Positions 39,201 to 57,212 of a stretch of DNA of 64,000 nt are shown in pieces. The notes under the pieces are model-generated. The model saw only the letters and a list, made by a program, of their open reading frames with translations, was not told the origin of the DNA and made no database searches. The DNA is from Patescibacteria group bacterium (lineage in GTDB: Bacteria; Patescibacteriota; Patescibacteriia; UBA10025; JAHIVO01), in assembly GCA_028718605.1 (NCBI GenBank), contig JAQULM010000001.1, forward strand, positions 413,719-477,718. The letters run 5' to 3'. Position 1 is the stretch's first letter. Each line of letters begins with the position of its first letter. The position numbers and the translations under genes were made by a program.

Positions 39201-39503
39201 AATAAGTATCTTGCCGAGGAGGGACGCAACCCAGAATAAAATCCAGCCGACTGTTTCAGCGATTAATTCAGTGGCCCATGAAATTGCTTCTGCATGCACA
39301 GGCCGCGCAATAACAAAACAACCGCCGATTAAAACAGTTAGCAGGACTGTACCGAGTAGCACCGTCCTTGCTCGCGGCCGGTACTTCCAGAGTTCGCGTA
39401 TGTATTGTGTGATATGTATCAGCATTGAAATGTTTGTATCAAAGTGAAGCGGCAGCGCCGTATTCCCGAGTACTGCCGTCCGGGGGAAGCACCCCTCCTG
39501 CAC
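33255..39503 (-). CDS. Giant (2082 aa) protein: N-terminal VirB6/TrbL-like polytopic membrane domain plus a long charged/coiled extramembrane region
   Basis: At least 8 hydrophobic helices in the first ~400 aa with VirB6-like spacing; the remainder is E/K/A/Q-rich with long coiled-coil-like stretches; the C-terminal tail is acidic and Ala/Pro-rich. Confidence 0.55.
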   Translation of the reverse strand: MQEGCFPRTAVLGNTALPLHFDTNISMLIHITQYIRELWKYRPRARTVLLGTVLLTVLIGGCFVIARPVHAEAISWATELIAETVGWILFWVASLLGKILIVLIDILISIIQYNNFTSSPVIDKGWSVVRDACNMFFVLVLLVIAFGTVLRLENYKFNRLLAKLVIMAILVNFSKMIAGFFIDISQVVMLTFVNAFADTSYKDFTTVLKLDNLLSVTSDAKQTTALGFAEMVAVPLFANIVIIAGIMTMVALIVVVLMRIIMLWILVVLSPLAYLLATLPIGARYSSQWWSTFGKWATTGPVLAFFIWLALAVLPNSGDSSALGVTTDATGQVLASGQLTAVQAAIAPVSRSDQLLGFMLAIAMFLMALSTAGALGGMAGQLAGNFANKIKGWGSIPLKAAGAPLLGLRKAAGYGVGRVTGYVGRKVRESDKTWLNMATPEFWKGFAQRGKRLEERAKQRALGKGEYFGEVLFKGKKGALNRKELAERAIIEKLKSEFKQEMGSAGESRQAMMDLAFKTFNMGGFEGDEARQAFLELATSKGNDDDVFFGFGELYRKDEGVRAQLNDHYGKLGWKPEEVEGMFKEYNADSIKNFNAGFVGLNKKFVKGERDEETGEVIRSSREVGKAANDADQRRLRAMAGIAESAKNVGHWEQYSATKDMATGQYYMMDDEEQRGEIIGEAKKMGLRDFLRTLSPHVLRQRVWSADRDEEGNFIEDAENGEQIKGLMMKDADGKEVEDTRLYRHSYKADVYAPKEGSFEHEMYTKLMSGQHKPEMRQMQSRHADQHVGQFFDTPGNLVTDEEEAFARGFRPYTNNKGEQKTAAQALQEEWMKMQDYNQPISRAFYNIKYNGRVDAPPKGDKYPGDPGFIRKARAEADDYLQGELLDRVNYDDVTAAAELNGADITKPRNQKAMLGVLEDLHEAQYAARMHIPGDAMIPHEMVQELADKTGKKVDWDPKEWKDGVSDDEKQELTSNMGRVDEALRSTRLSNEQRAKLEQYRRSLTGQMNERKGEWTGKNGASKDDAHQLESQLMGFSEDELKGSLKKKMEGGLVAADGTKLPPEKLEAIVDDLVVKGRRDTVTRSRIVPFDDFVRDENVGPLPRMREEVSAETLSRSHAEYNKYKESGLSAADYDTMYEDEITAGEMVDSDELERRAEAGAQADVKKMRGLKSAVASGKSAKRQGKNASNATMLGLDFSDPAVREQFGIVEGQIAARFDSDTEAHKEEKGQMAEKLATALEQQLRSEGVGDDEIADQVGNLKKTLGANDKIVLADNNAWESRIQSIRGHELRGHDLAKNFVNLETGTMNEVGEEFYKTLSEEQQQLVDRIGMMEFAAESLGVGEGKYQLGSDSKQFLQDKKLDFFEKGVKGAAPEPESADEFIDKDFADEAVSDRELAMVGMVARGKYVAGRGVEVAGDAARKVKSTAVNVKNKVKQKVPELWEASHLDDVVEYGIVRPAKLVGRAPKAVAQGVSSAVHGTREWWQKRKYGKRVKKVNDLIDNYSEQFAENDVAGKRDQKHAAKAHYEEEVRKRDGMRHQEKQAKVQIAENNEKARDATRRAGGLTGAARQQALDEASKHQLDAFKGQQGLKRLQGDIDRQNAEVEKAQQARSQADLAYAAAVEDDIATMGQLRQTFEKIAGKLSPDELEEFKTMATEGLEASNLGAITSATFAGGIQQHNEPAIAPHEQKLAGQQAELATLQEQRIPLQHAVDDIPPTQANSLRAAKLQGALEEHDEKIEAKEAEIIETQQTIGEIQSTGDAFGSDAKRYQAEARAQAELKNAVNKRAGAKPAPAAPTPTPTPAPTTPRPQAGKAKDETLETAAPRTKPPTAEEIIGAQQQVIAAAESQLAEAVANLKEKAGLSGDVDADGILKNATVRATLEQGGHSDSVKGIEALAQSIADERTVLEDLKSGTPVAGPVLGSEQVQQNVESLGAIGDELRVAIEQTAGAAKDLPAVMEAIQKGLGDLVTTMQERMKALGESMNPDQKKASEDLTKIVESMRQGMLPGGPQGGVLGTYDPRLMLYRLEELTRAMRDAKTRRASEVVDDARRASTAQKTQPTPRKASAESEESSGEQPAAE

Positions 39504-39528: not shown

Positions 39529-42500
39529 CTACTGCGTCACGGTAATCGTAACACCGGTGCTCGTTAATCCATCACGGCCACCCTCGAAATCGCAATCATC
39601 AAGGTCTACATTGAACCGGCAATCGCCGAATCCCGGGCAACTCTCGCCCGAATCTTTAAGCACGCCGCACCAGTCCCAATTGTCCACGACCTTGATTTTC
39701 GGAATATGCGGTCCGGGGATGCGGTACTGGTGAGACAGCGAGATCGTCCCGGATTCGTACCGGCCGGTCGTCACGTAGTGCGGTGTTCCGTCGTCCCAGT
39801 CAACTTCGACGAACGTGATCGGCGACTGCTCCGGATCAGCACTGATGGAGAACGTGAACTGGACAACGCCGCCGCCGGGTATCGTAATGCTGTCAGTCTC
39901 CTCGAGCGAACCGCCGGCACCGACGAGGATGGTATGGATAATCGGCGGCACGCCGCAGTAGTCAACGTCCAATCCCTGCACGTACTCTGGCCGTACCGCC
40001 TTGCCCTGCGCAGTGCTGTATGGGCACACTGCCATGGTGTTGTACGCGGTGTTCCACGTGTTAATAAATCCGCTATTTTCTGCGTACGACATACTGCCCG
40101 CAGGCGCAGTGCACGCCCCATAATCATCAGTACGGCACGACCCAAATGTTGTTGACTGGCACGTACCGTAGGTATCCACGACAGCGCATGAGCCCCAGTT
40201 GCGCTCATTTTCGCACGTCGCGGTGGCACCAGCGCACGTCTCGCCTCCTGGACAGTCAGTGTCGACATGGCATTCAACTGATGTCGTAACGCTGCAGCTG
40301 CCGTTCTTGCAGTCCGTATCCGCCTGGCACAGCACTGTGCTGTCATGGCTGCATACACCGACACCCGTACATTCCACATTATCGGAACAGCCAATCCGTG
40401 TCGCTTCGCACGTCCCTCCGGGGCAATCCGCAGCAATACGGCACCGAGCGCCATCATTCGCGCCGGCGCGGCACAAACCGGTATTGCACACTGCCGGGGC
40501 ACCGCCGCAATCAGCGGTAACCTGGCAATACGCGCTGCTGTTTGAACACACACCGAGCGCTGTTGAGCATCCGTACACGCGGCAATCAAAGTCTGATGTC
40601 ACGCAATTCCCCGCGGGCCAAATAAAGCTCCGGCAATCCGCGTTCACCGTACATACGTGTCCAGTCCGAGGGCCTGAATTGTTATCACAACGGTTAAAGC
40701 ACTCCTGCAGGGCGTTGTCAGCGCACGCGAGGTGCTGGCAGTCAGCTGCGCCAGCGCACGCCATCGTATGGTTGGTCTGGCACGTGCCGCCGGTACAGGT
40801 ATATCCGCCGGGAATGGGTGTGCAAGTGCTGTCAGGACAATCAGCGTTGGTCGCGCATGACAGGCTCGCATTATCTCCCGCAGCGCACGTACCACCGCAC
40901 GGCTCGCCGTCTTCTGCACCACCATAACAGGTACCGATCGCACCGCACCGGCGGAATTCGCACGTCGAGTCATCGCCCGCCGTGCACCGGATCAGGTCAG
41001 TGAAATTGGACCGGTCGCATGTTGCAATATCCCACGTCCAGGCATTAAACGCGTTCGCGAACAGGCGCTTCGAATACCGTATCGCTTCCGCATAATTCGT
41101 ATCGGGTGTGGGCGTCGCTGTTTTCATACCATACGTACCGCCGTCCATGATGCATGGGCCGTAGTTCCTCCCGCCGTACGAGCAATCGGCATCGATCGCA
41201 CAGTACGCCTCGGCGTTCCCCGAGCAGAACCCGACACCAATGCCGACGCAGTACCCGTCATCGTCCGTGCCAACCGTGCCGTCGTCACCCTCATGGCAAT
41301 TCACCTCGTCAAGCCGGGTCGCGCAGTCGTTGGCCCATCTCCATGAGCACTGCCTGCCGCCGACGCACTTGCCGCCGCCAGTGGTGCACGCAGTAACCGC
41401 TGCAGCTGAATCACACCAGTTGCCCGTGTTATTCGTACAGTATTTAATATGCTGCCCCAATAGCCCATTAGCCACCGTATTATACGGGGAACTGTACGGC
41501 GTGCCAGCATGCGCGAAACTCGCGTCGCTCCGGGATTCAACGTACAGGGGGCCCGTGTGGGTGGCGTAATCCCATGCCGTCGGATCGCCTGCCGGCGCGA
41601 CAACCGTGCCAAACGGCGCGAACTGCTGGGTGTACTTGTACAGCAGCGCCGGCACCTGGAACGCGGATCCTTCACTGACGCGAGCAGTCCATGCGCGGTC
41701 ATTGTCATCATCGGCGACCTGGGCAAGGACCGAGCATGACTCGCGCAGCTGGAAGATTGGCAAATAGTGCGCACCGCCGCCATTGTTGCCGTCGTGCATG
41801 CTCGTCCTGAAATGGGTAATCTGCCCGGCATCATTGAATATGACTGCGAAATCAATATAATTGCCACTGCACGTCCACCGTTCGCCCCAGCAATTCGTTG
41901 CCCCGCCACAGGGGCCGCCGCCCGCGTCTTCTTCATTGAGCGTCATGAAATAATGGTTGTCGCCGTCACCGACACCGTAGTGGCCGCATTCCCAGTCGCC
42001 GTGCGACCAGTGCACCATGAGCACGTCGATGCGCTCGATTTCATATTTATAATACCGGTCTTCGGGATGGGCTGTAATCAAGTTATTGTATCCTCGCGTG
42101 CACTGCTCATCGTCGTCGCAGTCGCAGGACATGCAGAAGCCGTTGCGCCACCCACCATCCCACGCGCACGAGTACGCGGCGCCGCCCATATTGCCCGCTT
42201 CGTCGCACTCGCTCGTGCCGTCTTGGTCAATAAAGTTTGTCGTCATCGGCGCGCGGTATTTGAACGGCTTGCCGATCAGCGGAGACTCCTCAAATGTAAT
42301 CCGGCACCCGCCGCCATGGCCGGTCGAGCCCTTACCGTTACTTACCTGCCGTGTCGCCTGGAACGTGTCGACCAGGCCAAAACTCACCGACTTCGGCTTA
42401 TTATAGTTGCCCTCCTGCTCCAGGCACATGTACAGCGGCCGGCGGCCGTCATACCCGGCAGTACGGAGGTTAGAAAATATATTCGTATCGCCCATAAGGA

Positions 42501-45500
42501 GGTCGGCAGGCCACCAGTTCAGGCAGTACGCCGGATTCAGCGGATCGCGCTCCAGGCAGTACCCTTCCCATCCGCGGTACTCGATGCCGTTCTCGTCCGT
42601 GTACGCGCAGTACGGCGCTGACGCATTCGGGTACAGCCGGCACGACCGCGGTATGAGCGACCCGTCCTCCTTGTACTTGAGGGCTGGCTCGATTGAGATA
42701 TCGTCGACAAAGAATTCCACGCCCGGTACGGTCACGATATTGCACGTGTCGCCGACGGGGCAGTCCGCGTCAACGTTGCAGGGGACGTTCGGATTCGCAT
42801 TGCACATCTGCGGCTCGTCGTGGAAATGGATGATATTGAGCAGTGCGTCGTTCCAGCCGGTTACCTCGGCGCCGCCGATGGGATCCCACCCTGCCTCGAT
42901 AGGCCCGAGCGTGAACTGCTGCCAGTCCTGCGTAAGCTCCACGTCCTCGATCGCGCTCCAGCCGATCTCGTTCCCGCGCGCATCGAGATACCCGAATTCA
43001 ACACGAATTTTGTCATACACCGTCGGTAGTGTTGCCCACCGCAGTTTCAGCGAAACCACGTACTGGTCGCCGTCGATAAGGTTGCCAGTGCCGATATCGT
43101 AGGACAAGCCATTCCACTGCGCGGTGCCGATTGTGCCGTCGTTATTCGTATCGTTGCCGGTATACCCGCTCGTTTTAACGCGCGCGACATTATTCTCATC
43201 GAGATTGCTGTTCTGCGACGGAACGCCCCCGTTATTCACGTCTTCTTCGGTCCACTTGACCGTCGCGACGCCATCAAACCAGTTCCGTGGCTGCCACGCC
43301 GAATCAAGCTCGCTGAGATCAATCTCGTCAACGGTTGGCCCTGCATCAGGGCTGCCGCCATAATCACTCGATGTAGTACAGCTCGCGGTGGCGCCGCCAG
43401 TCAGTTCACATGAGAGCTTCTGATTTGCTTCGTAATCTCCGTCGCCAAAATCGCCATTTTTTGCCAGATCCGTTCCGCTCGTCACGGATCCGGCTTCTTC
43501 CATCGCCGGATACAGGAGCGCACCCTCGACAATCTGCGGATCAGAGCATGTGCCTCCGGCACCGCATTGCGCGTCGCTCGTGCAGATAATATCTTTATTG
43601 TTCTTGCATCGGCGTTGCCAGTCGAGTCCCGCCATGACCATGCCAGAATAATTATGCACTTTCTCGGCGAACGCAGGGGACGTAAACGTTTGATCAACTT
43701 CCTCGTAATCAACAACGCCTGTGCAGACGCCTGTCGCCTCATCCATCTTGTCACAAATAAACCGGGACGTGCATAGTTCCTGGACATTGCCGTTTTTATC
43801 TTCTTCGCGTACCGTTGTTTCGCACGCAAGCCATTTTCCGCACTCGCGGTCTGGCCGCACCTTCACGACTGAATTAGAATCGCATGTCGTCGGATCATCA
43901 ACACACGTTGCGGGCTCCTCGCCGTCGACTGAAGCAGATGAGCTGTACGGCAAATCGCTACGCGACATGTCCTCAAACAAGCGGCATCCCGCATCGCGGC
44001 TGACAAGGCCATTGCATGACGATGAATCAATCGTATCGCTTAAATAATAGTACGATGCATAGTCTGCTTCTGCGCTGACCTGCTCTACCTGCACCTGATC
44101 AAGAATAACATCGCACACGGGGGTTGAAGCGGCAACTCCTGGCCTGCGGAATACGACCGAGAACCTGTTCTGGAGCTCCTCGAGAGTTGTGCCCCCGGAC
44201 GGATTCCACTCATGTTCCACGCCGTCGCCATCAATGAATGGGGTCGATGGTATTGATATAACATATTCATACTTTTGCCAACTGTCGGTGGTATGGAAAA
44301 ATGCGCCTGGCAGGTACTGCACGCCGTTTGGCAGCACCTGGTCAACCGTCCGGACAGCACCAACGCTGACCCCGTCATACGTCGGATCTGCCAGCACTGT
44401 ACAGCGTGGGTCATTAGGATTGCGTTTTGCCCAGAAAGAAATTCGGAACGTCTTATTATCCGTCAGGCTTCCCGTATCTATCCCGCGCCATTGGTAGTGG
44501 GCAGCATCATTCCATGGTGCGTTCGTGCAGTTCTGATACGACCTGAAGATCGCCGCTACCGCTCCGTCATGAGCATCGGACGTAGCGATCAAACGGTCAC
44601 CGCATGGCTGCCGCGCTTCACCGGGTCCTGGCAAGTCGCACGTGGAAGCTGCTCTATTGCAGGTAGTGCCGCCCGCCTCGCACGTGCCTGGGCACGCAGC
44701 GCCTGCGCACGTAACGCAATCATTATTGTCATCACAGTACGTCGCGCCGCCGCCGCACCCGGATGTATAATCAGTATCGCATCGTCCGCAGTCGATGTTG
44801 GAATTGCATGCATACCCCGCCTGCGGGCCGCCTGCCGTACACAATCCGAGTTTGGTAGACTGGTTCCCCCAGTCGAGGAATTCATCAGGTACGTAGCAAT
44901 CGAGGTCAACGGCACATGGGTACCCGCTCTGCTGGCACCTTCCTGCGTTGCACGTGTCGTTGTCGATGATCGCGTCAGTTACAATGCCCGCATCGGCGAC
45001 ACTATCAATGCTCTCAAAGCTGCCGTTTGTCAGAAAATTTTGGGACAACACTTCAGCATTGTCAGCTATGCCCTCTGGATCACGGTACTCCGTGCAGCCA
45101 GACACGGATTCTTCGCACGATCCCACCCAGCCATCAACGGGTTTTGGGGTGATGCGGTCATCTTTCAGGCAGTTGCCGCTGTCGCAGTCGTCCGAGGAAT
45201 TGCACAGCGCACCTTCATTTGCTCCGCCGTTGTAGCACGTGCCGATCGACACCGGGCAATCCGGGGTAGCGCTTGCTGATCCGTTCTTGAACCATCCTCC
45301 TTTATCTTTTTGGTATGAGCATGTCTTTTTCCCGGGTTCCTTGAAATACATCTGGGAGCCGCTCCCCGTCGTGTACTCTTCGCATCCGTTCTCGTTGTAC
45401 AGGCACATCTCGGTAGCGTATGCATCGGGATCATTTATCATATATGAATCGCCATACGCACTAACGCTGCCGTCCGCATTCGTCAGAGGAAGCCCCATGC

Positions 45501-48500
45501 GCTCGCAACCCTTACTGCCGGCACCGCACGCTTTATCTGAATCATAGACGTAGTACCCTACGGTATCCTGGCTAATGCTGGGATTAATGTCATAGTGGAG
45601 CGATGACGGCTCGGGTCCGCCCCCAATGTAACTCTGGAAGTTATTTCTATCAGTGGCATCAACTGATCCATTTTCATCGAAATCGCCGACCAAGAGAGGT
45701 ACTGGCGCATAGCTCGTTCCGCTCGATAAATACCTATTCAGTATGTCAATATCATACCGGTTAATACGGCCATCGTCATTCAGATCGCCGCGCAGGTAAC
45801 GCGCGGTTGTATATGACATGCTCTCATACATTTCCGTGTTGTACGTATCGATGAATATATCACATCCAACTTTTGACTTATCGCACAAGCGACGGAATGA
45901 TTTCAGGTAATGCACCGTACCGGCACTGTCAGAATAAGCATCGCATCCTTCCCATCCCGAACAGTCTTGGTACGAATCCTTGATAAGGTACACGCTGTCA
46001 TATACCTCGGTAATTTCAATATTATCGACATAGAACGCACTGTCACCATATATCACGAGCTGGTTCGCGCTGATATCAGCGCTCTCCGGCAAGTAGAGCG
46101 GGCCTAGTACGAACTGGTTCCATTCGCCAGTTTTTGCTACGGCTTTGCCCGAAAATACCATCGCAGGCGTCGAATTAATGGCGACGGTCACCGGCACATC
46201 GGAGCCCGAGACGGCTGATTTTACCCAGAGTGAAACTGAATACTGCTGTCCGCCTGGGAGGGTAATCTGCGAACCGACGTTACTGATCGCGGCGCTGTTC
46301 GTTACTGCCATCGAATGCCCGTTCAGGTTGAGAGACTCATTGCTGTAGCTCGCATCGCCGGACCATAGGTCGATTGATCCGGACTCAAAATCTTCACGGT
46401 ATACCTGGCGGGTATTGTCGCCCGCGTTGCCTTTATATGCGCGGCAGCCCGCATTCGATGCAGTGCACTGCACGCCCTGGTTAGGGATAATATGGTAAAT
46501 CGATCCGCGGCAATCTTCATCGTTGATGGCGCCGTCGCTATTCGCATCAACACACGCGAGCCCTGAATTTGTGCAAATGCCGTCAGCGCACGATGCGGTG
46601 CTGTCAACGGAATTCTTATACGATTTACAATCGTCAGAGACATAGATCAGGCGCGTCCGCAAGCGGTAATATACATTGCCGAGCGAATCGAAGAATTCCG
46701 TGCAATCAGGATTATCTGCCATGTCCGCTGCCGTGCAGACCTGCTGGGGATAATCCGCCGTACCATCCCCGTCGACATCAAGATTATCGATGCACGCTGG
46801 CCAGTCCTCGCCCAACGCTACGAGTGCGGGATCATTTTCTGCACCGACGTTCGTGCACGGACCATTGTCAAGATTGCTCTTCTTCAGATTGTACCGACGC
46901 AGCTGGTACCCAAATTCATCAGACCCCTCCCATGTGTAGTATGCGCCCGTATCCGGATCCGACGTCTCTACGCACACTTTTATCTTGCTGTAATACTCCT
47001 TCCCTTCGCCGCCCGCGGCGACATCTTCAAGATTCGTATATTCTTCGCATCCGACAGCAGATGCGGGGCACGACATGCCAGTAGTCGAAACGAACGAAAC
47101 GGGATCGCGCACTGGCCGCAGCGGCATCCGATCAATCTCGAGCTCCCGGTATGCCTGGCAACCGACGAATTCAGCAGAGCACTGATCGCAGGAAAACGGA
47201 TCCGCAGCGTTGCACAGCCCCGGCGGGGAAATGATCCCGGTAATCTTCCTGCCGGTCGTCTTCGATGTAAATTCCTCACATCCGACTTCTGTTTCCTGGC
47301 ACTGTAGCGTATAACTCGCGCACAAAGGATCATCAGTCACGGCATTGCCCGTGCAATTCAGATACGATGGAGGTTTCTTGAAATATGTCTTCGTCGATTC
47401 TTCGTACTCTTTGTATGGGGTAAGGGTATTCTCCTCCATCTGGAAATCATCAATGATGACGTCACATTGATCGGTCAACGGCCGCACGATTGAAGCGAGA
47501 ATAAGCGGTTCCCCTGCCGCTACCCGAAAAGTTATTTTCGGAAATGTAATCGTCCCCGTATACCGTGTCCACTGCCCAGAAGTGGCTACGTTCATGACAT
47601 TGGTAAACATGCCACCCCCAATAACTGCATCCGGCTGGCGGTATGCCCATACGCTCAAGCTTCCAGTATCCGATGTGCAATCAGCATCATCAGCCGCCTG
47701 TTTCGCATAGAGCGAGAAAGTAAACGTACGCTCGTTTGTTGATGCGCCGACATCAGCAATTTGTGCGGTATATGTACCGTCCTCAAATGGGGTACCGGTC
47801 CAATCCGGATTACCCGGACAGGGTGGCAGCATACTCGTCCGCAATGCCGTTGAGCCGCTGTAGCTGTCCGACACGGCGGGCGACTGTAAACCACAGAATG
47901 AACTTAAAATTGGCCAGTATGTAAAAAGTTCAGAAGCCGCATCGTCCTTAACAGCCAGCGGATTCTGCTCATACGATTCAAAACTGCTGTTCAGGAGAAG
48001 GTTCGCTCCGTCTCCTTTTACGCGGATAAACTCACTGCACCCATCCGCTGATACATTACACGTCCTCGCATTCGCATTCAGGCTGATAACCGGATCGGTA
48101 GCGTCATTGGGCTTCAGGCCGTCGCATGCCCACGATTTTGCCGTCGAGTTATACTCACGGCAATACCACTGGCACCCGACAGTATCGATCGAGCAACTAT
48201 TGGTATTCACGGTGTCGGTAAGGTATGACACCATATCGCCGCTCCTGCGTGTCAGCAGCGTGCAGCTTGTTTCCCACGGTTTGCACTCCGTAGCGTCAAA
48301 GCGCCATACGGCTTTTTCTTCCATGCAGTACCCCCATACAGAGCACGATCCTTTCTCGTCTTCCTTGAGGCACTGTTTCTCATCCGCGCAGTAGTCTTCT
48401 TGGCGCTGGATGAGAGTCGAAGCGGCATCTGCCGTATCAACCTTTTCGTCGCGATTCGTATCCTCCGCGCGGATGGCCGTCTGGTAGGTAACCTGCGGAC

Positions 48501-50298
48501 CAGCACCCTCGCGCGCGCAATACGTCTCGGGAATCTTCAGAACCCAGTTCGGGTCAATCAGCTGGTAGAACGGGGACTTCGGATTATCATATTCGCCAAT
48601 AATATCATTGAGCGTATAGTTGCCTCGCGCGTACTGCCCGATGTATTTCGCCGCCAGCTCCCACCCCACGGGAATAATGCGGTATTTCCGCAGAATCACC
48701 AAGCTCCGGTACGGGTACCCTTCGCGATAGTCCGGCTGATTGCCGGCGATATCATACCCAAAAGGTTTATTTCCATCCAGCAATCCCTGCTCAACAGCAT
48801 CACGAACGAGCATCTTCTGGCTGATAGCAGTGCTGAACCGGGAATCAATAACGCACGTCTGGGGTGTCGGGTCGTTCTGGTTCGGACAGCTTGAGAGGCC
48901 CGAGAGTATGTCCACGTTCCCGCCCTCAGAATAGGAAGTCTGCTTCAGCTCCTTGAACCGCAGCTTGGCGGCAGTAACGCCGGGTGATGATGCGCCAAAC
49001 TTGTTTGAGCCTCCCGCATACGATGAGGCAGTTGCTTCATCGAGACCGTTGAGGTAACGGTCGAGCAGTTTGTTGGCGAGTGTGTTTGTAAAAATTCCGA
49101 CTGCGTCGGCGACAAGGCTGCCGGTGTACGTAAGGTACGGATCGATTGACTTGCCGAATAATGACGTGCCAGCGCCGCGAAGAAACGCGGCGGGTGTCTT
49201 CACCACGCCGGTAATCTTGGACGTGACAGCCTTAAATTCCCCCTGGAGCGACTGCGTGAACTCGGTTGCCTTTTCGTTCACCGCTTTCGTCAGCTTCACC
49301 TGGTCTCGGATAGTCATGTACGCGCCGTACTCGCTGGCTTTGGGGTTGAATTTTTTTGAAAATTCGATGAGGTACTGCGTACCGGGATCAACTTGGACTA
49401 AGTCTTTTGTATCAACGCCGAGGCTCTTTGCGAGCTGGTTATAATGCTTCTGCAATCCTTCGCGATATCCATAATAATTATCCAGTATCTCCGTGATCGG
49501 ACAGTCCCCCTTGTAGCTTGTCCCTTTATCGTACTCATAATCCGCTTTGCGTGCCATGATAGTCAGCTTCACTTGCAGGTTGCCGCTTGGATCCTGGGGA
49601 TCGCCGAGATCGCACAGAGAAAACGAGCTTACGCATTCACCCGCACCGTCCTTTTTGATAAGGCGCGGTTTCTTCGCATCCGTCGGCTGCTTTATCATCT
49701 TCTCATCAAAAATTTTGTACTCATCCGCAGTTTCCATAATGGAAATATAGCAGCCGGCAGCAAGGCATTTCTTTTTCGCGTCGAGGCTGGAGGAGCATTC
49801 CTCCAATGAAAGATTTTGCGGGCATATCATGACCGGCGGCGGGCATTTTGAATCGGTTTTGCAGCCCTGGTACGGGTGGCCATCACACTGCGATTTTCCA
49901 ATCCAGTCTGATGCGATAGAATCGAGGAGATCGCCAGCCGCAGCATCACCCGCGTCCTTGAGCATCTTCATCGGATCGCCCACAAAATACGGCTTCTGGC
50001 CTTTCTCGCCGGTCGCGAGCTTTACCGCGTAGTTGTATGCGAGCGCATTAACATAGTTTTTCAAAACATTTTTAAACGCGATATCCTTGGCAGTTTTAAC
50101 CGCCTTCGAGATCGCATCGCGTATTGCCGCCGGAATATCGCCGATCGTAATGCTCATATCTCCCATGCCAAAAATGGCATCCGCGTGGCGCGGGATGAGG
50201 GCGACCGGTGCAACTAACTGCAGCGCGAAAAAAGCGAGAGCGCCAATAAGCGCCCACCGCCGCATCTGTCCGCGAAATATGTTTTTGAATCGCCTCAT
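39529..50298 (-). CDS. Giant (3589 aa) secreted Cys-rich surface protein with dockerin-like and PKD-like modules
   Basis: Signal peptide MRRFKNIFRGQMRRWALIGALAFFALQLVAPVALIPRHADA; hundreds of Cys in spaced CxxxxDC / CxxGxC repeats; dockerin-like DLNDDGRINRYDIDILNRYLSSG...GDFDENGSVDATDRNNFQSYIGG (nt ~45618..45800); C-terminal VQFTFSISADPEQSPITFVEVDWDDGTPHY is PKD-like. Confidence 0.7.
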   Translation of the reverse strand: MRRFKNIFRGQMRRWALIGALAFFALQLVAPVALIPRHADAIFGMGDMSITIGDIPAAIRDAISKAVKTAKDIAFKNVLKNYVNALAYNYAVKLATGEKGQKPYFVGDPMKMLKDAGDAAAGDLLDSIASDWIGKSQCDGHPYQGCKTDSKCPPPVMICPQNLSLEECSSSLDAKKKCLAAGCYISIMETADEYKIFDEKMIKQPTDAKKPRLIKKDGAGECVSSFSLCDLGDPQDPSGNLQVKLTIMARKADYEYDKGTSYKGDCPITEILDNYYGYREGLQKHYNQLAKSLGVDTKDLVQVDPGTQYLIEFSKKFNPKASEYGAYMTIRDQVKLTKAVNEKATEFTQSLQGEFKAVTSKITGVVKTPAAFLRGAGTSLFGKSIDPYLTYTGSLVADAVGIFTNTLANKLLDRYLNGLDEATASSYAGGSNKFGASSPGVTAAKLRFKELKQTSYSEGGNVDILSGLSSCPNQNDPTPQTCVIDSRFSTAISQKMLVRDAVEQGLLDGNKPFGYDIAGNQPDYREGYPYRSLVILRKYRIIPVGWELAAKYIGQYARGNYTLNDIIGEYDNPKSPFYQLIDPNWVLKIPETYCAREGAGPQVTYQTAIRAEDTNRDEKVDTADAASTLIQRQEDYCADEKQCLKEDEKGSCSVWGYCMEEKAVWRFDATECKPWETSCTLLTRRSGDMVSYLTDTVNTNSCSIDTVGCQWYCREYNSTAKSWACDGLKPNDATDPVISLNANARTCNVSADGCSEFIRVKGDGANLLLNSSFESYEQNPLAVKDDAASELFTYWPILSSFCGLQSPAVSDSYSGSTALRTSMLPPCPGNPDWTGTPFEDGTYTAQIADVGASTNERTFTFSLYAKQAADDADCTSDTGSLSVWAYRQPDAVIGGGMFTNVMNVATSGQWTRYTGTITFPKITFRVAAGEPLILASIVRPLTDQCDVIIDDFQMEENTLTPYKEYEESTKTYFKKPPSYLNCTGNAVTDDPLCASYTLQCQETEVGCEEFTSKTTGRKITGIISPPGLCNAADPFSCDQCSAEFVGCQAYRELEIDRMPLRPVRDPVSFVSTTGMSCPASAVGCEEYTNLEDVAAGGEGKEYYSKIKVCVETSDPDTGAYYTWEGSDEFGYQLRRYNLKKSNLDNGPCTNVGAENDPALVALGEDWPACIDNLDVDGDGTADYPQQVCTAADMADNPDCTEFFDSLGNVYYRLRTRLIYVSDDCKSYKNSVDSTASCADGICTNSGLACVDANSDGAINDEDCRGSIYHIIPNQGVQCTASNAGCRAYKGNAGDNTRQVYREDFESGSIDLWSGDASYSNESLNLNGHSMAVTNSAAISNVGSQITLPGGQQYSVSLWVKSAVSGSDVPVTVAINSTPAMVFSGKAVAKTGEWNQFVLGPLYLPESADISANQLVIYGDSAFYVDNIEITEVYDSVYLIKDSYQDCSGWEGCDAYSDSAGTVHYLKSFRRLCDKSKVGCDIFIDTYNTEMYESMSYTTARYLRGDLNDDGRINRYDIDILNRYLSSGTSYAPVPLLVGDFDENGSVDATDRNNFQSYIGGGPEPSSLHYDINPSISQDTVGYYVYDSDKACGAGSKGCERMGLPLTNADGSVSAYGDSYMINDPDAYATEMCLYNENGCEEYTTGSGSQMYFKEPGKKTCSYQKDKGGWFKNGSASATPDCPVSIGTCYNGGANEGALCNSSDDCDSGNCLKDDRITPKPVDGWVGSCEESVSGCTEYRDPEGIADNAEVLSQNFLTNGSFESIDSVADAGIVTDAIIDNDTCNAGRCQQSGYPCAVDLDCYVPDEFLDWGNQSTKLGLCTAGGPQAGYACNSNIDCGRCDTDYTSGCGGGATYCDDNNDCVTCAGAACPGTCEAGGTTCNRAASTCDLPGPGEARQPCGDRLIATSDAHDGAVAAIFRSYQNCTNAPWNDAAHYQWRGIDTGSLTDNKTFRISFWAKRNPNDPRCTVLADPTYDGVSVGAVRTVDQVLPNGVQYLPGAFFHTTDSWQKYEYVISIPSTPFIDGDGVEHEWNPSGGTTLEELQNRFSVVFRRPGVAASTPVCDVILDQVQVEQVSAEADYASYYYLSDTIDSSSCNGLVSRDAGCRLFEDMSRSDLPYSSSASVDGEEPATCVDDPTTCDSNSVVKVRPDRECGKWLACETTVREEDKNGNVQELCTSRFICDKMDEATGVCTGVVDYEEVDQTFTSPAFAEKVHNYSGMVMAGLDWQRRCKNNKDIICTSDAQCGAGGTCSDPQIVEGALLYPAMEEAGSVTSGTDLAKNGDFGDGDYEANQKLSCELTGGATASCTTSSDYGGSPDAGPTVDEIDLSELDSAWQPRNWFDGVATVKWTEEDVNNGGVPSQNSNLDENNVARVKTSGYTGNDTNNDGTIGTAQWNGLSYDIGTGNLIDGDQYVVSLKLRWATLPTVYDKIRVEFGYLDARGNEIGWSAIEDVELTQDWQQFTLGPIEAGWDPIGGAEVTGWNDALLNIIHFHDEPQMCNANPNVPCNVDADCPVGDTCNIVTVPGVEFFVDDISIEPALKYKEDGSLIPRSCRLYPNASAPYCAYTDENGIEYRGWEGYCLERDPLNPAYCLNWWPADLLMGDTNIFSNLRTAGYDGRRPLYMCLEQEGNYNKPKSVSFGLVDTFQATRQVSNGKGSTGHGGGCRITFEESPLIGKPFKYRAPMTTNFIDQDGTSECDEAGNMGGAAYSCAWDGGWRNGFCMSCDCDDDEQCTRGYNNLITAHPEDRYYKYEIERIDVLMVHWSHGDWECGHYGVGDGDNHYFMTLNEEDAGGGPCGGATNCWGERWTCSGNYIDFAVIFNDAGQITHFRTSMHDGNNGGGAHYLPIFQLRESCSVLAQVADDDNDRAWTARVSEGSAFQVPALLYKYTQQFAPFGTVVAPAGDPTAWDYATHTGPLYVESRSDASFAHAGTPYSSPYNTVANGLLGQHIKYCTNNTGNWCDSAAAVTACTTGGGKCVGGRQCSWRWANDCATRLDEVNCHEGDDGTVGTDDDGYCVGIGVGFCSGNAEAYCAIDADCSYGGRNYGPCIMDGGTYGMKTATPTPDTNYAEAIRYSKRLFANAFNAWTWDIATCDRSNFTDLIRCTAGDDSTCEFRRCGAIGTCYGGAEDGEPCGGTCAAGDNASLSCATNADCPDSTCTPIPGGYTCTGGTCQTNHTMACAGAADCQHLACADNALQECFNRCDNNSGPRTGHVCTVNADCRSFIWPAGNCVTSDFDCRVYGCSTALGVCSNSSAYCQVTADCGGAPAVCNTGLCRAGANDGARCRIAADCPGGTCEATRIGCSDNVECTGVGVCSHDSTVLCQADTDCKNGSCSVTTSVECHVDTDCPGGETCAGATATCENERNWGSCAVVDTYGTCQSTTFGSCRTDDYGACTAPAGSMSYAENSGFINTWNTAYNTMAVCPYSTAQGKAVRPEYVQGLDVDYCGVPPIIHTILVGAGGSLEETDSITIPGGGVVQFTFSISADPEQSPITFVEVDWDDGTPHYVTTGRYESGTISLSHQYRIPGPHIPKIKVVDNWDWCGVLKDSGESCPGFGDCRFNVDLDDCDFEGGRDGLTSTGVTITVTQ

Positions 50299-54035: not shown

Positions 54036-57000
54036 TCATACCACAAAATTTATCAGCCTGCCTGGCACAAATACTACCTTTTTCGGTTCCGTGGCGACGT
54101 ACTTCCGCACTTTCGGGCTTTTCAATGCCAATGCCCTCACTTGATCTACGGTGGCATCTGGACGGGCGATGACAATATCCCGCACCTTGCCATTGACTTG
54201 TACCACGAACTTCACCTGCTCGTCCTGAACTTTCGCTTCGTCGTACAAAGGCCATTGCTCGTACATAATGCTCTTCTGATGGCCGAGGCGTTCCCATAAT
54301 TCTTCTGCGATATGCGGCGCAAAAGGTGACATTAATTTAAGGAAAATTTCAAACTCCTCTCGCTTCAATAAAGATTGCCCCTCATATGATTGCCCATTAA
54401 CAACTATTACTTTTTTTATATAAGTCATCAGCTGGGCAATGGCAGTATTAAATTTAAAATTCTCTATATCCTCGGAAATCTTTTTTATCGTTATATGCAA
54501 TTGTCTCACGATACCATGATGAAGATTTTTAGCCTGTGGATTATCTTTATACCACTCAATTAAAAATAGGCTCCACTCCCAAACTCGGTCAAGAAACCGC
54601 GTCATTCCGATTAATCCTTTTGTATTCCACGGCTTCACGTCCTCAAACGGACCCATGAACATTTCGTACATGCGCATGGCATCAGCGCCGAACTTCTTGA
54701 TGACATCGTCAGGATTCACGACATTACCGCGCGATTTGGACATCTTCTGCCCGTCTTCGCCTAAGATCAGCCCCTGGTTTTTTAATTTAATAAACGGCTC
54801 GTCGCCATTCTTTTTAACAAACTCTTTGGGTATAACCTCAATGTCGCATAAAAACTTATAAATAAACCGCGCGTACAGCAAATGCAAAACCGCATGCTCA
54901 GCACCGCCGATGTACAGGTCGACGGGCAGCCACTGCTTCAGTTTTTCGGGGTCTGCAAGCTTTTTATCATTGTGCGGGTCGCAGTACCGAAGCCAGTACC
55001 AGTTTGACCCTGCCCACTGGGGCATGGTGTTTGTCTCGCGCTTGGCAGGCCCGCCGCACTGCGGGCACTTCACGTTTACCCATGTGGCAATCGCAGCAAG
55101 TGGCGACTCGCCCGTGCCGGTTGGTTTGTACTTTTTGACATTCGGAAGTTTCACGGGCAAGTGCTTTTCAGGAACGGCAACATGCCCGCACTTCTCGCAG
55201 TGCACGATCGGAATCGGTTCGCCCCAGTACCGCTGCCGGGAAAACACCCAGTCGCGGAGCTTATAATTAACAGCGGTCTTTCCTTTCCCCTGTCTTTGTA
55301 ACCATGCAGTAATAACCTTCTTGAACTCAACCGAATCCATGCCGTCGTATTTGCCGGAATTAATCATGGTTCCCTCGCCAGTATAAGCAAACGGCACTTC
55401 CTTCCCTTCGCATATTTGCTGATAATCATACCTAAACGCTTCCTGTGTAGTTATTTCTGCGTCATGTGCGAAAATTTCCCAATAATGTTGAGTTTGCGAA
55501 TAAGTCTTTGGCAAAATAACATGACGGAATTTTAGATGATATTTTTCTGCAAAAAAGGCATCCCGCTCGTCATGCGCCGGTACTGCCATAATCGCGCCAG
55601 TGCCGTATGAACGTAACACGTAGTCAGCGATCCAGATCGGAATCTTCGCGCCATTAACAGGATTAATGGCGTATGCACCGGTAAACACGCCTGTTTTCTC
55701 TTTCGCCAAATCCGTCCGGTCAAGATCTGACTTTTTCGCGGCAGACGTTTGGTACTTTTCAACTGCCTGCTTCTGGTCCGGCGTTGTGATCGAACCCACC
55801 AGCTCATGTTCGGGCGACAGTACCATGTACGTCGCGCCGAATAACGTGTCAGGCCGTGTGGTAAAGACGCGGATTACCGGACATAAAAGTTTGCTCAGCG
55901 CATCCTTGACCGGCTTGAGCTCAATATTGACCTCCTCATGCTCAGTTTCATCAACCGGACGTTTGTTGGTTGCGACATTGATGTACAGCGACCGCATGGG
56001 AAAATGCGGATCAACAGGCTTATGGAGCGTATCCGTTAATATAATATCTCTCCGCGCCTCAGCAAAACGGACTGTCCCGTCAGGAGTGACCAAGGCAAAA
56101 CAGTCAATCCAGTATGCATTTACTTTTCCGCCGTGCTTTTTCGCAACACTCGAATAATGCCGGATAATGTGCTCCATGATCTGTTTTCTGGAAAGTTGCG
56201 ATTCATCTTTGCCGCCGAGGGCAGTCCGCCGCACCATGGCAGGATCATGCGTTTCGCCGTCGATATACAAACCCGTATCAACGGCAAGAACCGGCAGTTT
56301 CGTTTTTCCGAAATACGCGCGCGCTTTAGCCTCTGCGTTCTCGCGAAGATTGCCGTCTTCATGAACTTCAATCGTTTTTATATGCTCATCCGCAGGTGTT
56401 ACCAGATCGGGCGCAGTGCCGATGCTCGCAAGAAGTTTTTTAAATCGCACCACCTTGCTCGGATTCGTTGTCGCGGCCAAAACCCTCGGGTGCGGTGCAA
56501 CCGAAAAATCAACTTCAGCGCCCTCGCTTCTGCCAATCCAATTCTTCTGGAGCAATTTGATGTTCTCCGGCCAGTCGAGCTTGTCCAATCCGTGCAAAAG
56601 CCGCTCGATATACCGCTCATCGGTAATCTTAACGAGCCACTGCTTGATGCTCTTTTTCGTCACCTCGGTGCCGCACCGCTCGCATGTGCCGGCAACAACC
56701 TCCTCATTCGCCAATCCGGTCTTGCATGACGGGCACCAGTTGATCGGCGCATATGATTCGTATGCAAGGCCATGTTTGAATAACTGTAAAAAAATCCACT
56801 GCGTCCACTGGTAGTATGACGGGTCAGAAGTAATAACCTCGCGATCCCAGTCATACGAAAAACCCAGGGATTTGATCTGCTTGCGCATGTTCCGTATGTT
56901 TTTCGCTGTCGTAACGGCAGGGTGCGTCCCTGTTTTAATCGCGTAATTCTCCGCGGGCAAACCGAATGAGTCGAAACCCATCGGATGCAGGACGGGAAAC

Positions 57001-57212
57001 CCCTTCATGCGGAAATACCTTGAAACGATGTCCGATGCGGTATAACCCTCCGGATGGCCGACGTGGAGCCCCTGGGCTGACGGGTATGGAAACATGTCGA
57101 GCACATACCGCTTGTCAGGTCCAGCGGCGCCCGGAGCGGCAAACAGTTTCTCCTCGTTCCACCGGCGCTGCCATTTGCGCTCTATCTTTGCATGGTTATA
57201 TTTTTCTCGCAT
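54036..57212 (-). CDS. leuS: Leucine--tRNA ligase carrying a ~210-aa Ham1/RdgB (ITPase)-like insertion
   Basis: [16 protein letters not shown] (HIGH), [32 protein letters not shown] (CP1), [13 protein letters not shown] (KMSKS). The insertion covers residues ~236-445 (nt ~55878..56507). Confidence 0.9.

What the first reader, a model, noticed from the sequence alone, without database searches (positions are those of the whole stretch)
55878..56507. Ham1/RdgB (ITPase, non-canonical NTP pyrophosphatase)-like domain inserted into leucyl-tRNA synthetase at the catalytic-core/CP1 junction
Between [13 protein letters not shown] and [15 protein letters not shown], where bacterial LeuRS normally has ~12 residues, there are ~210 residues. 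They begin [18 protein letters not shown] and continue ...[17 protein letters not shown]...[14 protein letters not shown]. These mirror the RdgB/Ham1 signatures (VLATGNxGKxxEF…, E.G.TF.ENA..KA…, LPALADDSGL.VD). LeuRS is otherwise intact (HIGH, KMSKS and the editing motif are present). I am not aware of LeuRS-ITPase fusions. A nucleotide-sanitising or nucleotide-binding module inside an aminoacyl-tRNA synthetase would be novel. Equally, it could be a degenerate structural insert.
Basis: partly seen in the sequence, partly recalled or inferred. Interest (0 to 1): 0.65.

Follow-up and report, generated by a model that had tools for sequence, protein, structure and literature searches.

The report
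Nucleotide-cleaning enzyme nested inside LeuRS
A complete, apparently active Ham1/ITPase-type nucleotide pyrophosphatase domain sits in-frame inside an otherwise normal leucyl-tRNA synthetase of a Patescibacteria (CPR) bacterium. It is one example of an apparently undescribed habit of this group of nesting small hydrolase domains in surface loops of LeuRS and other essential proteins.

Summary
Window 54036-57212 (-) encodes a 1058-aa bacterial LeuRS with HIGH, KMSKS and the editing motifs intact. At residues 237-446, relatives carry about 12 residues; this protein carries a 210-residue insert.

- **Identity of the insert:** it passes Pfam Ham1 (39.5 bits, cut-off 22.5). Its model (pLDDT 92) superposes on RdgB/ITPA structures (TM 0.7-0.79). 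It is 42-48% identical over its full length to free-standing ~205-aa Patescibacteria proteins.
- **Catalytic residues:** the equivalents of RdgB N10, K13, E41, N49, K53 and D69 are invariant, including in 17 LeuRS-embedded copies. The base-binding C-terminal half is remodelled, so the substrate is unknown.
- **Not unique:** 19 full-length LeuRS carry this domain at the same hairpin. Others carry a serine hydrolase there. NUDIX, HAD and further modules occur at four other loops.
- **Other hosts:** the same domain is also nested in GlyRS, topoisomerase IA, thioredoxin reductase and Cbf5.

Best reading: an autonomous house-cleaning NTP pyrophosphatase tethered to LeuRS. Six full-text literature searches found no description. 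I rate it a new variant of a known kind, interest about 0.6.

The parts
54036..57212 (-). leuS: 1058-aa bacterial-type leucyl-tRNA synthetase carrying the nested domain
   Evidence: ORF. TIGR00396 scores 1018 bits against a cut-off of 548. The full-length AF2 model has pLDDT 89 and pTM 0.80, and its body superposes on E. coli and T. thermophilus LeuRS with target-normalised TM 0.81-0.86.
56505..57212 (-). LeuRS residues 1-236: N-terminal half of the Rossmann catalytic core, the ZN1 region, and the first strand of the CP1 hairpin (strand 228-239 in the model)
   Evidence: Pfam tRNA-synt_1 covers residues 13-214. DSSP strand E228-239.
57054..57065 (-). HIGH signature (HVGH, residues 50-53)
55875..56504 (-). 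Nested Ham1/ITPase-like domain, residues 237-446 (family envelope 240-446)
   Evidence: Pfam PF01725 at 39.5 bits. 42-48% identity over 92-96% of its length to free-standing proteins of 200-218 aa. Model pLDDT 92, pTM 0.86. Fold matches to 3tqu, 4bnq, 1k7k and 1vp2. hmmsearch envelope.
56454..56474 (-). ATTNPSK (residues 247-253): the (S/T)xNxxK phosphate-binding motif. N250 and K253 correspond to RdgB N10 and K13.
   Evidence: Alignments to 1k7k. N is conserved in 0.97 and K in 0.98 of 120 family domains; in the LeuRS-embedded copies N is 0.94 and K is 1.00.
56325..56360 (-). E285...N292-A293...K296, corresponding to RdgB E41, N49, A50 and K53 (metal and phosphate ligands)
   Evidence: E, N and K are each 100% conserved in the 17 embedded copies.
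56277..56282 (-). V311-D312, corresponding to RdgB D68-D69. The catalytic Asp is kept; the preceding Asp is replaced (V here, N in most free forms).
   Evidence: D is 0.99 conserved over 120 domains and 1.00 in embedded copies. PDB 2pyu/2q16 carry A at the D69 position (ADASGL) in the ITP and IMP complexes.
55299..55874 (-). Remainder of the CP1 editing domain (residues 447-638), with TTRPDT (nt 55845-55862) and [15 protein letters not shown] (nt 55560-55604)
   Evidence: Pfam PF13603 covers residues 447-638 as profile positions 23-184 of 185. Motif positions.
54732..54746 (-). KMSKS loop (residues 823-827)
54156..54512 (-). Anticodon-binding domain (residues 901-1019)
   Evidence: Pfam PF08264

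Best explanation
The gene encodes a bifunctional polypeptide. An entire Ham1/ITPase-superfamily nucleoside-triphosphate pyrophosphatase is nested in-frame at the tip of the two-stranded beta-hairpin that leads from the LeuRS catalytic core into the CP1 editing domain. The domain belongs to a divergent subfamily that is typical of Patescibacteria and normally free-standing. LeuRS keeps every signature needed for activation, transfer and editing, and should charge tRNA-Leu normally. The nested domain keeps the phosphate-binding, metal-binding and catalytic residues of RdgB. It most likely works on its own as a house-cleaning enzyme (NTP + H2O -> NMP + PPi), riding on an essential, constitutively expressed gene in a very small genome. 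Its C-terminal, base-recognising half is remodelled, so its substrate is probably not simply ITP/XTP and remains unknown. Shown here: domain identity, completeness, exact position, conservation of the catalytic set, recurrence in many LeuRS, and use of the same hairpin for other domains. Inferred, not shown: catalytic activity, independence from the synthetase, and any selective advantage of nesting.
For: - **Domain identity and completeness:**
- **Catalytic residues:** the equivalents of RdgB N10, K13, E41, N49, K53 and D69 are family-invariant, and K, E, N, K and D are 100% kept in 17 LeuRS-embedded copies.
- **Rate of divergence:** the insert diverges at a rate comparable to the host (63% against 64-74% identity to P0024), which implies purifying selection.
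- **Confident fold in context:** the full-length model is confident through both junctions. Strands 228-239 and 446-451 flank the domain, and the LeuRS body superposes on solved LeuRS.
- **Real free-standing relatives:** free forms are genuine genes in ordinary housekeeping neighbourhoods.
- **Partners point to nucleotide or damage clean-up:** elsewhere the family is fused to NUDIX, a DNA-alkylation-repair enzyme, GNAT and RNase PH.
- **Hosts are functionally unrelated:** it is nested in GlyRS, thioredoxin reductase, Cbf5/TruB and topoisomerase IA. This argues for an autonomous module rather than a LeuRS-specific partner.
- **The site is permissive:** at the same hairpin, 8 of 20 large inserts among close relatives are Ham1-like and 12 are PF06821 serine hydrolases. 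Syntenic orthologous loci differ in what occupies the site.
Against: - No activity data exist for any member of this subfamily.
- RdgB D68 is not conserved (V311).
- The canonical PGxYSxR, FGYDP and SHR motifs cannot be aligned. NCBIfam RdgB equivalog scores fall far below their cut-offs (29.7 against 145).
- Canonical Ham1 enzymes are dimers (my own knowledge). Whether a nested copy can dimerise was not testable.
- I could not test whether genomes with the nested copy lack a free copy. Only the 64-kb window could be checked, and it holds no second copy.
- Recurrent pairing with aaRS hosts (LeuRS many times, GlyRS once) leaves room for a functional link.
Confidence: 0.6

Rival explanations
1. 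The nested domain is functionally coupled to the synthetase. It would act in cis on a nucleotide species made or used at LeuRS (for example non-cognate aminoacyl-adenylate, Ap4A-type by-products, or a non-canonical NTP competing with ATP), or act as a nucleotide sensor that modulates the swing of the CP1 domain between aminoacylation and editing.
For: The insert sits on the hinge hairpin of the mobile CP1 domain. LeuRS is by far the commonest host among long hits, and GlyRS is another aaRS host. Relatives stack further hydrolases (NUDIX, serine hydrolase, HAD) around CP1 and the catalytic core. Precedent: potyvirid Ham1 is a partner of a nucleotide-using polymerase (title and abstract of PMC8893687, listed).
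Against: The same domain is nested in enzymes unrelated to aminoacylation: topoisomerase IA, thioredoxin reductase and Cbf5. It also occurs at three different places in LeuRS (site A; after YWGEPFPF in P0179; near the C-terminal domain in P0182). Closely related free-standing forms are interleaved with embedded ones in the tree. Many sister LeuRS lack it or carry a serine hydrolase instead.
Confidence: 0.16
2. The insert is a non-catalytic pseudoenzyme. It would be a folded Ham1-like module kept as a structural spacer, an interaction surface or a nucleotide-binding regulator without hydrolysis.
For: RdgB D68 is replaced by V311. The C-terminal specificity motifs are absent. The Pfam match covers only profile positions 2-131 of 186.
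Against: All other catalytic and phosphate-binding positions are invariant across 120 family domains and in every embedded copy. The replacement at the D68 position is shared with the free-standing proteins (N in most), so it is a subfamily trait and not decay after nesting. The whole fold is modelled at pLDDT 92.
Confidence: 0.12
3. The insert is a selfish or neutral in-frame domain insertion. It would persist because imprecise deletion from an essential gene is lethal (intein-like persistence without splicing), spread by recombination into permissive loops, and bring no benefit to the host.
For: Embedded and free copies are interleaved in the domain tree. Host and insert distances correlate only partly (Mantel r 0.53, falling to 0.04 when P0028 and P0089 are included). 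Syntenic orthologous leuS genes differ in site-A content. The hosts are essential proteins, and one of them (P0192) also carries a true intein. The same hairpin hosts an in-frame 90-nt palindromic element in relatives.
Against: No endonuclease, Hint domain or flanking repeats are found at the window's insert. Base composition is uniform with the flanks. The catalytic residues are strictly conserved, which a purely selfish passenger does not need. No transfer mechanism is known.
Confidence: 0.08
4. The insert is an artefact: an assembly chimera, a mis-joined split gene, or an unspliced intron or intein that is removed before the mature protein forms.
For: The sequence comes from metagenome-assembled genomes. 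Patescibacteria are rich in introns (abstract of PMC13011429).
Against: The reading frame is continuous over 3177 nt. The identical protein occurs on 3 contigs in independent sources. 19 full-length proteins share the same architecture. No Rfam family, including introns, is found in the window. No intein or Hint Pfam hit is found. Both junctions are modelled as a regular beta-hairpin.
Confidence: 0.02

Closest known systems
RdgB / Ham1 / ITPA non-canonical purine NTP pyrophosphatases (Pfam PF01725; PDB 1k7k, 2q16, 3tqu, 1vp2, 2j4e)
   Same: Same fold over the full length (TM 0.7-0.79, E about 1e-11). The N-terminal half aligns, with N10, K13, E41, N49, K53 and D69 conserved.
   Different: The C-terminal half is not alignable by sequence. 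The PGxYSxR, FGYDP and SHR motifs are absent, and D68 is replaced. NCBIfam equivalog scores lie far below their cut-offs. The domain is nested inside another enzyme rather than being a free protein; canonical members are free dimers (my own knowledge).
Free-standing Patescibacteria Ham1-like proteins of about 205 aa (for example P0002 = TAK05622.1, P0001, P0008, P0021)
   Same: 42-48% identity over 92-96% of the insert, with the same family-specific motifs (K/R-R-x-A-L, KHGG, R..LT, P.R.LY).
   Different: They are independent genes in ordinary neighbourhoods. The window's copy has lost its own start and stop and is spliced into the leuS reading frame.
Bacterial LeuRS with its CP1 editing domain (TIGR00396; PDB 4aq7, 2bte)
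   Same: All signatures and the overall fold are present. CP1 is itself a classic nested domain, a pattern described in PMC13114784.
   Different: A second, unrelated enzyme domain is nested within the first hairpin of CP1. None of the solved LeuRS chains returned by the fold search spans the insert; targets are 621-876 residues against 1058 for the query.
IleRS carrying a GNAT acetyltransferase domain (NCBIfam NF040702 'ileS_w_GNAT')
   Same: A class Ia synthetase that carries an unrelated enzyme domain and is recognised as a distinct architecture by an annotation model (listed).
   Different: The synthetase and the extra domain are different. I did not examine where the GNAT domain sits. No equivalent model for LeuRS with Ham1 appeared among the listed matches (the best 25 of 34 families).
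Potyvirid Ham1 (cassava brown streak viruses), encoded within the viral polyprotein
   Same: A Ham1-family pyrophosphatase made as part of a larger polypeptide and reported as a partner of a nucleotide-using enzyme (abstracts of PMC8893687 and PMC6640186).
   Different: It is released by proteolysis and is canonical in its motifs according to those abstracts. It is viral, and it is not nested within a folded host domain.
Inteins
   Same: In-frame insertions into conserved regions of essential proteins, with a patchy distribution among orthologues.
   Different: No Hint or intein domain and no homing endonuclease are found. The domain is a metabolic enzyme with conserved catalytic residues, and nothing indicates splicing.

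Membership tests
Ham1/RdgB/ITPase family (Pfam PF01725) | Profile match above the curated gathering score | tested here: met
   39.5 bits for the insert alone and 35.3 bits in the full protein, against a gathering score of 22.5. Only profile positions 2-131 of 186 are covered.
Ham1/RdgB/ITPase family (Pfam PF01725) | ITPase-like alpha/beta fold over the whole domain | tested here: met
   AF2 model with pLDDT 92. Foldseek against PDB finds 3tqu, 4bnq, 1k7k, 1vp2 and 2j4e at E 1e-11 to 1e-8 and TM 0.6-0.79 over about 205 columns. Maf is much weaker at TM about 0.4.
Ham1/RdgB/ITPase family (Pfam PF01725) | N-terminal (S/T)xNxxK motif and the Glu, Lys and Asp set (RdgB N10, K13, E41, K53, D69) | tested here: met
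   N250, K253, E285, K296 and D312. These are invariant or nearly so in 120 domains, and K, E, K and D are 100% conserved in 17 embedded copies.
Ham1/RdgB/ITPase family (Pfam PF01725) | Second acidic residue next to the catalytic Asp (RdgB D68; E71 in human ITPA, from my own knowledge) | tested here: not met
   V311 in the window and N in most free forms.
RdgB/ITPA equivalog (ITP/XTP/dITP specificity; TIGR00042, NF011397) | C-terminal base-recognition motifs (FGYDP, SHR) and an equivalog-level score | tested here: not met
   TIGR00042 scores 29.7 against 145.35, and NF011397 scores 33.2 against 234. The profile-to-PDB search and hhalign stop at about residue 80-100.
RdgB/ITPA equivalog (ITP/XTP/dITP specificity; TIGR00042, NF011397) | Mg-dependent hydrolysis of ITP/XTP to NMP + PPi | not testable with these tools
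   Requires an enzyme assay.
Bacterial leucyl-tRNA synthetase (TIGR00396 leuS_bact) | Equivalog score, HIGH and KMSKS, the CP1 editing motifs, and the anticodon-binding domain | tested here: met
   1018 bits against 548.4. HVGH 50-53, KMSKS 823-827, TTRPDT 451-456 and AHDERD 546-551. Pfam PF13603, PF00133 and PF08264. Fold match to LeuRS with target-normalised TM 0.81-0.86.
Intein / self-splicing insertion | Hint splicing domain (with or without a homing endonuclease), or an intron RNA family at the DNA level | tested here: not met
   No intein, Hint or LAGLIDADG Pfam hit in the window protein, whereas these are detected in P0192. No Rfam family is found in the window.
Maf nucleotide pyrophosphatases (PF02545) | Profile match and closest fold | tested here: not met
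   Pfam Maf E 0.089 at 12.9 bits against a cut-off of 27. Maf structures match at TM about 0.4.

The most novel reading that the evidence does not exclude
Patescibacteria LeuRS serves as a scaffold for a nested tool-kit of small hydrolases. The modules are Ham1-like, NUDIX, PF06821 serine hydrolase, HAD, a 130-aa module with no Pfam match (it looks ASCH-like to me by eye, untested), and a module with a weak sub-threshold match to the nucleotidyltransferase family NTP_transf_5. They occupy at least five loops, with up to four or five per protein. Two novel readings remain open. (a) The modules work in cis with the synthetase as an expanded clean-up or proofreading apparatus for nucleotides, adenylates or esters. 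(b) They represent a previously unrecognised class of in-frame, non-splicing domain insertions that colonise permissive loops of essential proteins in ultra-small genomes (LeuRS, GlyRS, topoisomerase IA, thioredoxin reductase, Cbf5), possibly seeded by the in-frame palindromic element seen at the same hairpin in syntenic orthologues.
Probability: 0.15. Interest if true: 0.85.

Novelty: new variant of a known kind. Interest (0 to 1): 0.62.

Why it matters
**aaRS biology.** Accessory-domain accretion is regarded mainly as a eukaryotic theme (my own knowledge). Here a bacterial lineage with tiny genomes repeatedly nests whole enzymes inside LeuRS. That gives a natural map of at least five loops that tolerate insertions of 130-200 residues, which is useful for engineering domain-insertion variants of LeuRS.

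**Patescibacteria biology.** It points to nucleotide and metabolite clean-up functions being hard-wired to an essential gene. It also defines a divergent Ham1 subfamily whose substrate is unknown.

**Annotation.** NCBI names two such LeuRS (1367 and 1554 aa) 'non-canonical purine NTP pyrophosphatase'. Gene-content surveys can therefore miscount both leuS and the house-cleaning enzymes.

**If coupled.** If the modules prove to be functionally linked to the synthetase, this would be a new form of translational quality control.

Tried and rejected
- **Junction peptide search.** A third homologous-protein search with a junction-spanning peptide, meant to count architectures at the 90% cluster level, returned only 7 fragments. 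It did not even retrieve the query's own protein, so it gives no prevalence figure.
- **GTDB species genomes.** The search for related loci used two peptide patterns typical of the free-standing clade. Only 1 of 22 Patescibacteria loci was LeuRS-embedded. This sample is biased and I do not use it as a frequency.
- **afdb50.** The library was not available, so no check against UniProt/AFDB architectures was possible.
- **Aligning the C-terminal half to RdgB.** The profile-to-PDB search and hhalign both stop at residue 80-100. I therefore cannot say which residues replace F154, D157, H182 and R183.
- **Mobile-element hallmarks at the window's insert.** I found no meaningful flanking direct or inverted repeats, no shift in base composition and no Rfam family. 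The palindromic element seen in relatives is absent from the window.
- **Split-gene idea.** I tested whether the 'free' forms are really pieces of split leuS genes. They are not; they lie in unrelated neighbourhoods.
- **Single ancient insertion with strict vertical descent.** This is not supported as the whole story. Mantel r is 0.53 (p 0.002) for 14 proteins but 0.04 when P0028 and P0089 are included. The NJ tree interleaves free and embedded copies, though it is unbootstrapped and indicative only.
- **PMC4138327 ('CP1 hairpin').** It concerns human and yeast LeuRS-A and was not used.
- **Literature.** Six full-text searches found no description of LeuRS with Ham1, NUDIX or hydrolase insertions. 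Subscription-only papers are not covered.
Full report
**1. The observation.**
Window 54036-57212 (-) is one uninterrupted 1058-codon ORF. It is a bacterial leucyl-tRNA synthetase. TIGR00396 scores 1018 bits against a cut-off of 548. HVGH is at residues 50-53, KMSKS at 823-827, and the editing signatures TTRPDT at 451-456 and AHDERD at 546-551. Pfam finds the catalytic, editing (PF13603) and anticodon-binding domains.

[13 protein letters not shown] ends at residue 236 and TTRPDT begins at 451, leaving 214 residues between them. In 117 close relatives this interval is bimodal: <=25 residues in 70 (median 17 from the end of NWIGxSxG, i.e. about 12 after the Phe), 26-70 in 27, and >150 in 20, with none in between. 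I place the insert at residues 237-446, nt 55875-56504. The exact protein occurs on three contigs and under two NCBI accessions, both annotated simply 'leucine--tRNA ligase [Patescibacteria group bacterium]'. GC content is uniform across the junctions.

**2. What the insert is.**
- **Profile match.** On its own it matches Pfam Ham1p_like at 39.5 bits (gathering score 22.5, E 7e-10). Only profile positions 2-131 of 186 are covered.
- **Free-standing relatives.** It is 42-48% identical over 92-96% of its length to free-standing Patescibacteria proteins of 200-218 aa (E 1e-42 to 1e-47). The alignment runs from about their third residue to their C-terminus, so a whole protein has been nested.
- **Fold.** With that alignment AlphaFold gives pLDDT 92 and pTM 0.86. 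Foldseek against the PDB returns only Ham1/RdgB/ITPA structures at the top (3tqu, 4bnq, 6wwd, 1k7k, 1vp2, 2j4e; E 1e-11 to 1e-8, TM 0.6-0.79, about 205 columns). Maf proteins are far behind at TM about 0.4.
- **Catalytic residues.** Sequence alignments to E. coli RdgB equate N250, K253, E285, N292, K296 and D312 with RdgB N10, K13, E41, N49, K53 and D69. The deposited RdgB-ITP and RdgB-IMP complexes (2q16, 2pyu) carry Ala at the D69 position, which fits its catalytic role. RdgB D68 is V311 here and Asn in most free forms.
- **C-terminal half.** Beyond about residue 100 of the domain no sequence method aligns the family to canonical Ham1, and the RdgB equivalog models score far below their cut-offs. 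The family has its own conserved C-terminal positions.
- **Conclusion.** The fold and the phosphate, metal and catalytic half are conserved. The base-recognition half is remodelled, so the substrate is unknown.

**3. Is it alive?**
Across 120 family domains, N, K, E, N, K and D are 97-100% conserved. In the 17 LeuRS-embedded copies analysed, K, E, N, K and D are each 100% conserved, as are R17, R149, P166 and K178 in domain numbering. Between the window and its nearest relative P0024 the insert is 63% identical against 74% and 64% for the flanking LeuRS parts, and the trend holds down the list. The departures from canonical Ham1 are shared with the free proteins, so they are subfamily traits and not decay after nesting. 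I therefore disfavour a degenerate spacer.

**4. How it sits in LeuRS.**
The Pfam editing-domain model resumes at profile position 23 at residue 447. A full-length model has pLDDT 89 and pTM 0.80, with values above 90 through both junctions. It shows strand 228-239 running into the first strand of the Ham1 domain (243-246), and the last Ham1 helix (433-443) running back into strand 446-451. The domain is therefore carried on the tip of the first CP1 beta-hairpin. The LeuRS body superposes on E. coli and T. thermophilus LeuRS-tRNA complexes with target-normalised TM 0.81-0.86. I had no access to coordinates, so the orientation of the Ham1 cleft relative to the synthetic and editing sites could not be measured.

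**5. It is not a singleton.**
The closest LeuRS relatives, all Patescibacteria, range from 811 to 1554 aa and carry precomputed Pfam hits to Ham1, NUDIX, alpha/beta hydrolases and HAD. Pairwise mapping on a minimal LeuRS (P0100) places insertions of 35 aa or more at five hot spots:

| Site | Position | Modules seen |
|---|---|---|
| A | the core/CP1 hairpin | Ham1-like or PF06821 serine hydrolase |
| B | inside CP1, after AHDERD | NUDIX, HAD or serine hydrolase |
| B2 | about P0100 residues 413-419 | serine hydrolase |
| C | after YWGEPIPxVHC | serine hydrolase, or a 130-aa module with no Pfam match |
| D | after the YYLRY region | about 190 aa, weak sub-threshold NTP_transf_5 match in P0165 |

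An exhaustive HMMER search of 1.84 billion representative proteins with the insert gave 539 hits (85 at E <= 1e-10, 22 at E <= 1e-30). Many of the best are LeuRS with the domain at residues about 240-450. In all, 19 full-length LeuRS carry the family at site A, plus several LeuRS fragments. These hosts are only 40-67% identical to one another. The domain also occurs at other LeuRS positions: P0179 after YWGEPFPF, and P0182 near the C-terminal domain. It is nested in a GlyRS, a thioredoxin reductase, a Cbf5/TruB pseudouridine synthase and type IA topoisomerases, one of which also contains a genuine intein. It is fused end-to-end to NUDIX, a DNA-alkylation-repair domain, GNAT and RNase PH.

**6. 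History.**
- An unbootstrapped neighbour-joining tree interleaves free and embedded copies.
- Host and insert distances correlate only moderately (Mantel r 0.53, p 0.002 for 14 proteins; 0.04 if the divergent inserts of P0028 and P0089 are included).
- Two loci syntenic with the window share the gene order HisKA - 236 aa - response regulator - LysM/M23 - leuS - Sua5 - MFS - KsgA - 290 aa - giant protein. Yet they differ at site A. L086 has a 96-nt palindromic element followed by a divergent Ham1-like domain. L085 has only the 90-nt palindromic element, plus the 130-aa module at site C.
- Site A is therefore evolutionarily dynamic. I read this as old insertions inherited vertically within clades, with gains, losses and replacements. 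These data cannot count the events.

**7. Mechanism.**
My best explanation (confidence about 0.6) is an autonomous house-cleaning NTP pyrophosphatase tethered to LeuRS. The catalytic set is conserved. The closest relatives are ordinary free enzymes in housekeeping neighbourhoods. The fusion partners elsewhere point to nucleotide and damage clean-up. The hosts are functionally unrelated essential proteins, and the same loop accepts unrelated hydrolases.

The rivals are:
- cis-coupling with the synthetase, about 0.16;
- a non-catalytic module, about 0.12;
- a selfish or neutral insertion, about 0.08;
- an artefact, about 0.02. The artefact reading is excluded in practice by the continuous frame, the independent contigs, the 19 homologous architectures, and the absence of intron or intein signatures.

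**8. Comparison with what is known, and novelty.**
The domain is a member of the Ham1/ITPase superfamily: profile, fold and catalytic half are all met. It is not an RdgB/ITPA equivalog, because the specificity motifs and equivalog scores are not met. The host is a bona fide bacterial LeuRS.

Synthetases carrying extra domains are known. CP1 is itself a nested domain (PMC13114784). NCBIfam has a model for IleRS with GNAT. Cyanobacterial CAAD insertions are known to me from prior knowledge; the related paper PMC4893482 was listed but I did not read it. Ham1 inside a larger polypeptide is known from potyvirids (abstracts).

I found no description of LeuRS carrying Ham1 or the other hydrolases in six full-text searches. 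NCBI's pipeline mislabels two such LeuRS as 'non-canonical purine NTP pyrophosphatase'. The sequences are public and Pfam hits are precomputed for them, so the raw fact is visible in databases; the interpretation appears to be new. I classify it as a new variant of a known kind, interest about 0.62. A specialist would be surprised by the extent of the pattern (up to four or five nested enzymes in one bacterial LeuRS), but function remains inferred.

Noticed in passing
L085:10706-10795 and L086:10715-10810 (site A of leuS in loci syntenic with the window); absent from the window: A 90-96-nt in-frame palindromic element. It has terminal inverted repeats GTCATTGCGAG...CTCGCAATGAC and an inner palindrome GCAATCTC...GAGATTGC, and translates to VIAS..EAIS...EIA.S..PRND. 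It folds at -36.5 kcal/mol (z -4.9) and matches no Rfam family. By eye, the same peptide signature appears at site A in P0026, P0030, P0035, P0042, P0050, P0058, P0063 and P0075, and at site B in P0032. It resembles the in-frame palindromic elements of Rickettsia (my own knowledge) and may mark the same loops as DNA-level insertion hot spots.
   Followed up: partly
Related LeuRS proteins P0025, P0029, P0031, P0035, P0041, P0043, P0045, P0047 and others: PF06821 'Ser_hydrolase' (RBBP9/YdeN-type alpha/beta hydrolase) domains are nested at four different LeuRS loops, sometimes twice in one protein (P0031, P0070). At site A they are more frequent than Ham1 among close relatives: 12 against 8 of the 20 large inserts.
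   Followed up: partly
Related LeuRS proteins P0024, P0027, P0040, P0046, P0050, P0072, P0079, P0089 (site C, after YWGEPIPxVHC): A conserved module of about 130 aa (..HFYNQ..W..I..G.KT.E.RALNP.E..RYFG.I..G..) has no Pfam hit. It looks ASCH/PUA-like to me from memory, but I did not test this.
   Followed up: no
P0037, P0039 and P0165 (site D, before the ...PVDLYVGGAEH motif): An insertion of about 190 aa. It has no Pfam hit in P0037 and a weak, sub-threshold NTP_transf_5 (uncharacterised nucleotidyltransferase) hit in P0165 (25.9 bits against a cut-off of 31.2).
   Followed up: no
P0192 (1621 aa) and P0201 (982 aa): These are type IA topoisomerases with the same Ham1-like domain nested between the Toprim and Topoisom_bac domains; P0192 also has a NUDIX domain there. 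P0192 additionally carries a LAGLIDADG intein. Their Lys/Asn-rich composition suggests an AT-rich ultra-small organism.
   Followed up: partly
P0252 (GlyRS), P0177 (thioredoxin reductase), P0243 (Cbf5/TruB with PUA), P0256 (three tandem copies): The Ham1-like domain is nested in other essential enzymes and also occurs as tandem arrays.
   Followed up: partly
window 39529-50298 (-) and 33255-39503 (-): Two adjacent giant ORFs of 3589 and 2082 aa. The first has only faint or weak CBM_4_9 and dockerin hits on record. Syntenic giants are present in L085 and L086.
   Followed up: no
window 1-64000: No Rfam family reaches its gathering score on either strand, so no tRNA, rRNA or riboswitch is found in 64 kb.
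   Followed up: no
NCBI records MDD5566883.1 (P0037) and MDD5341768.1 (P0039): LeuRS proteins of 1367 and 1554 aa are named 'non-canonical purine NTP pyrophosphatase' by the source annotation. This misnaming is caused by the nested domain.
   Followed up: yes
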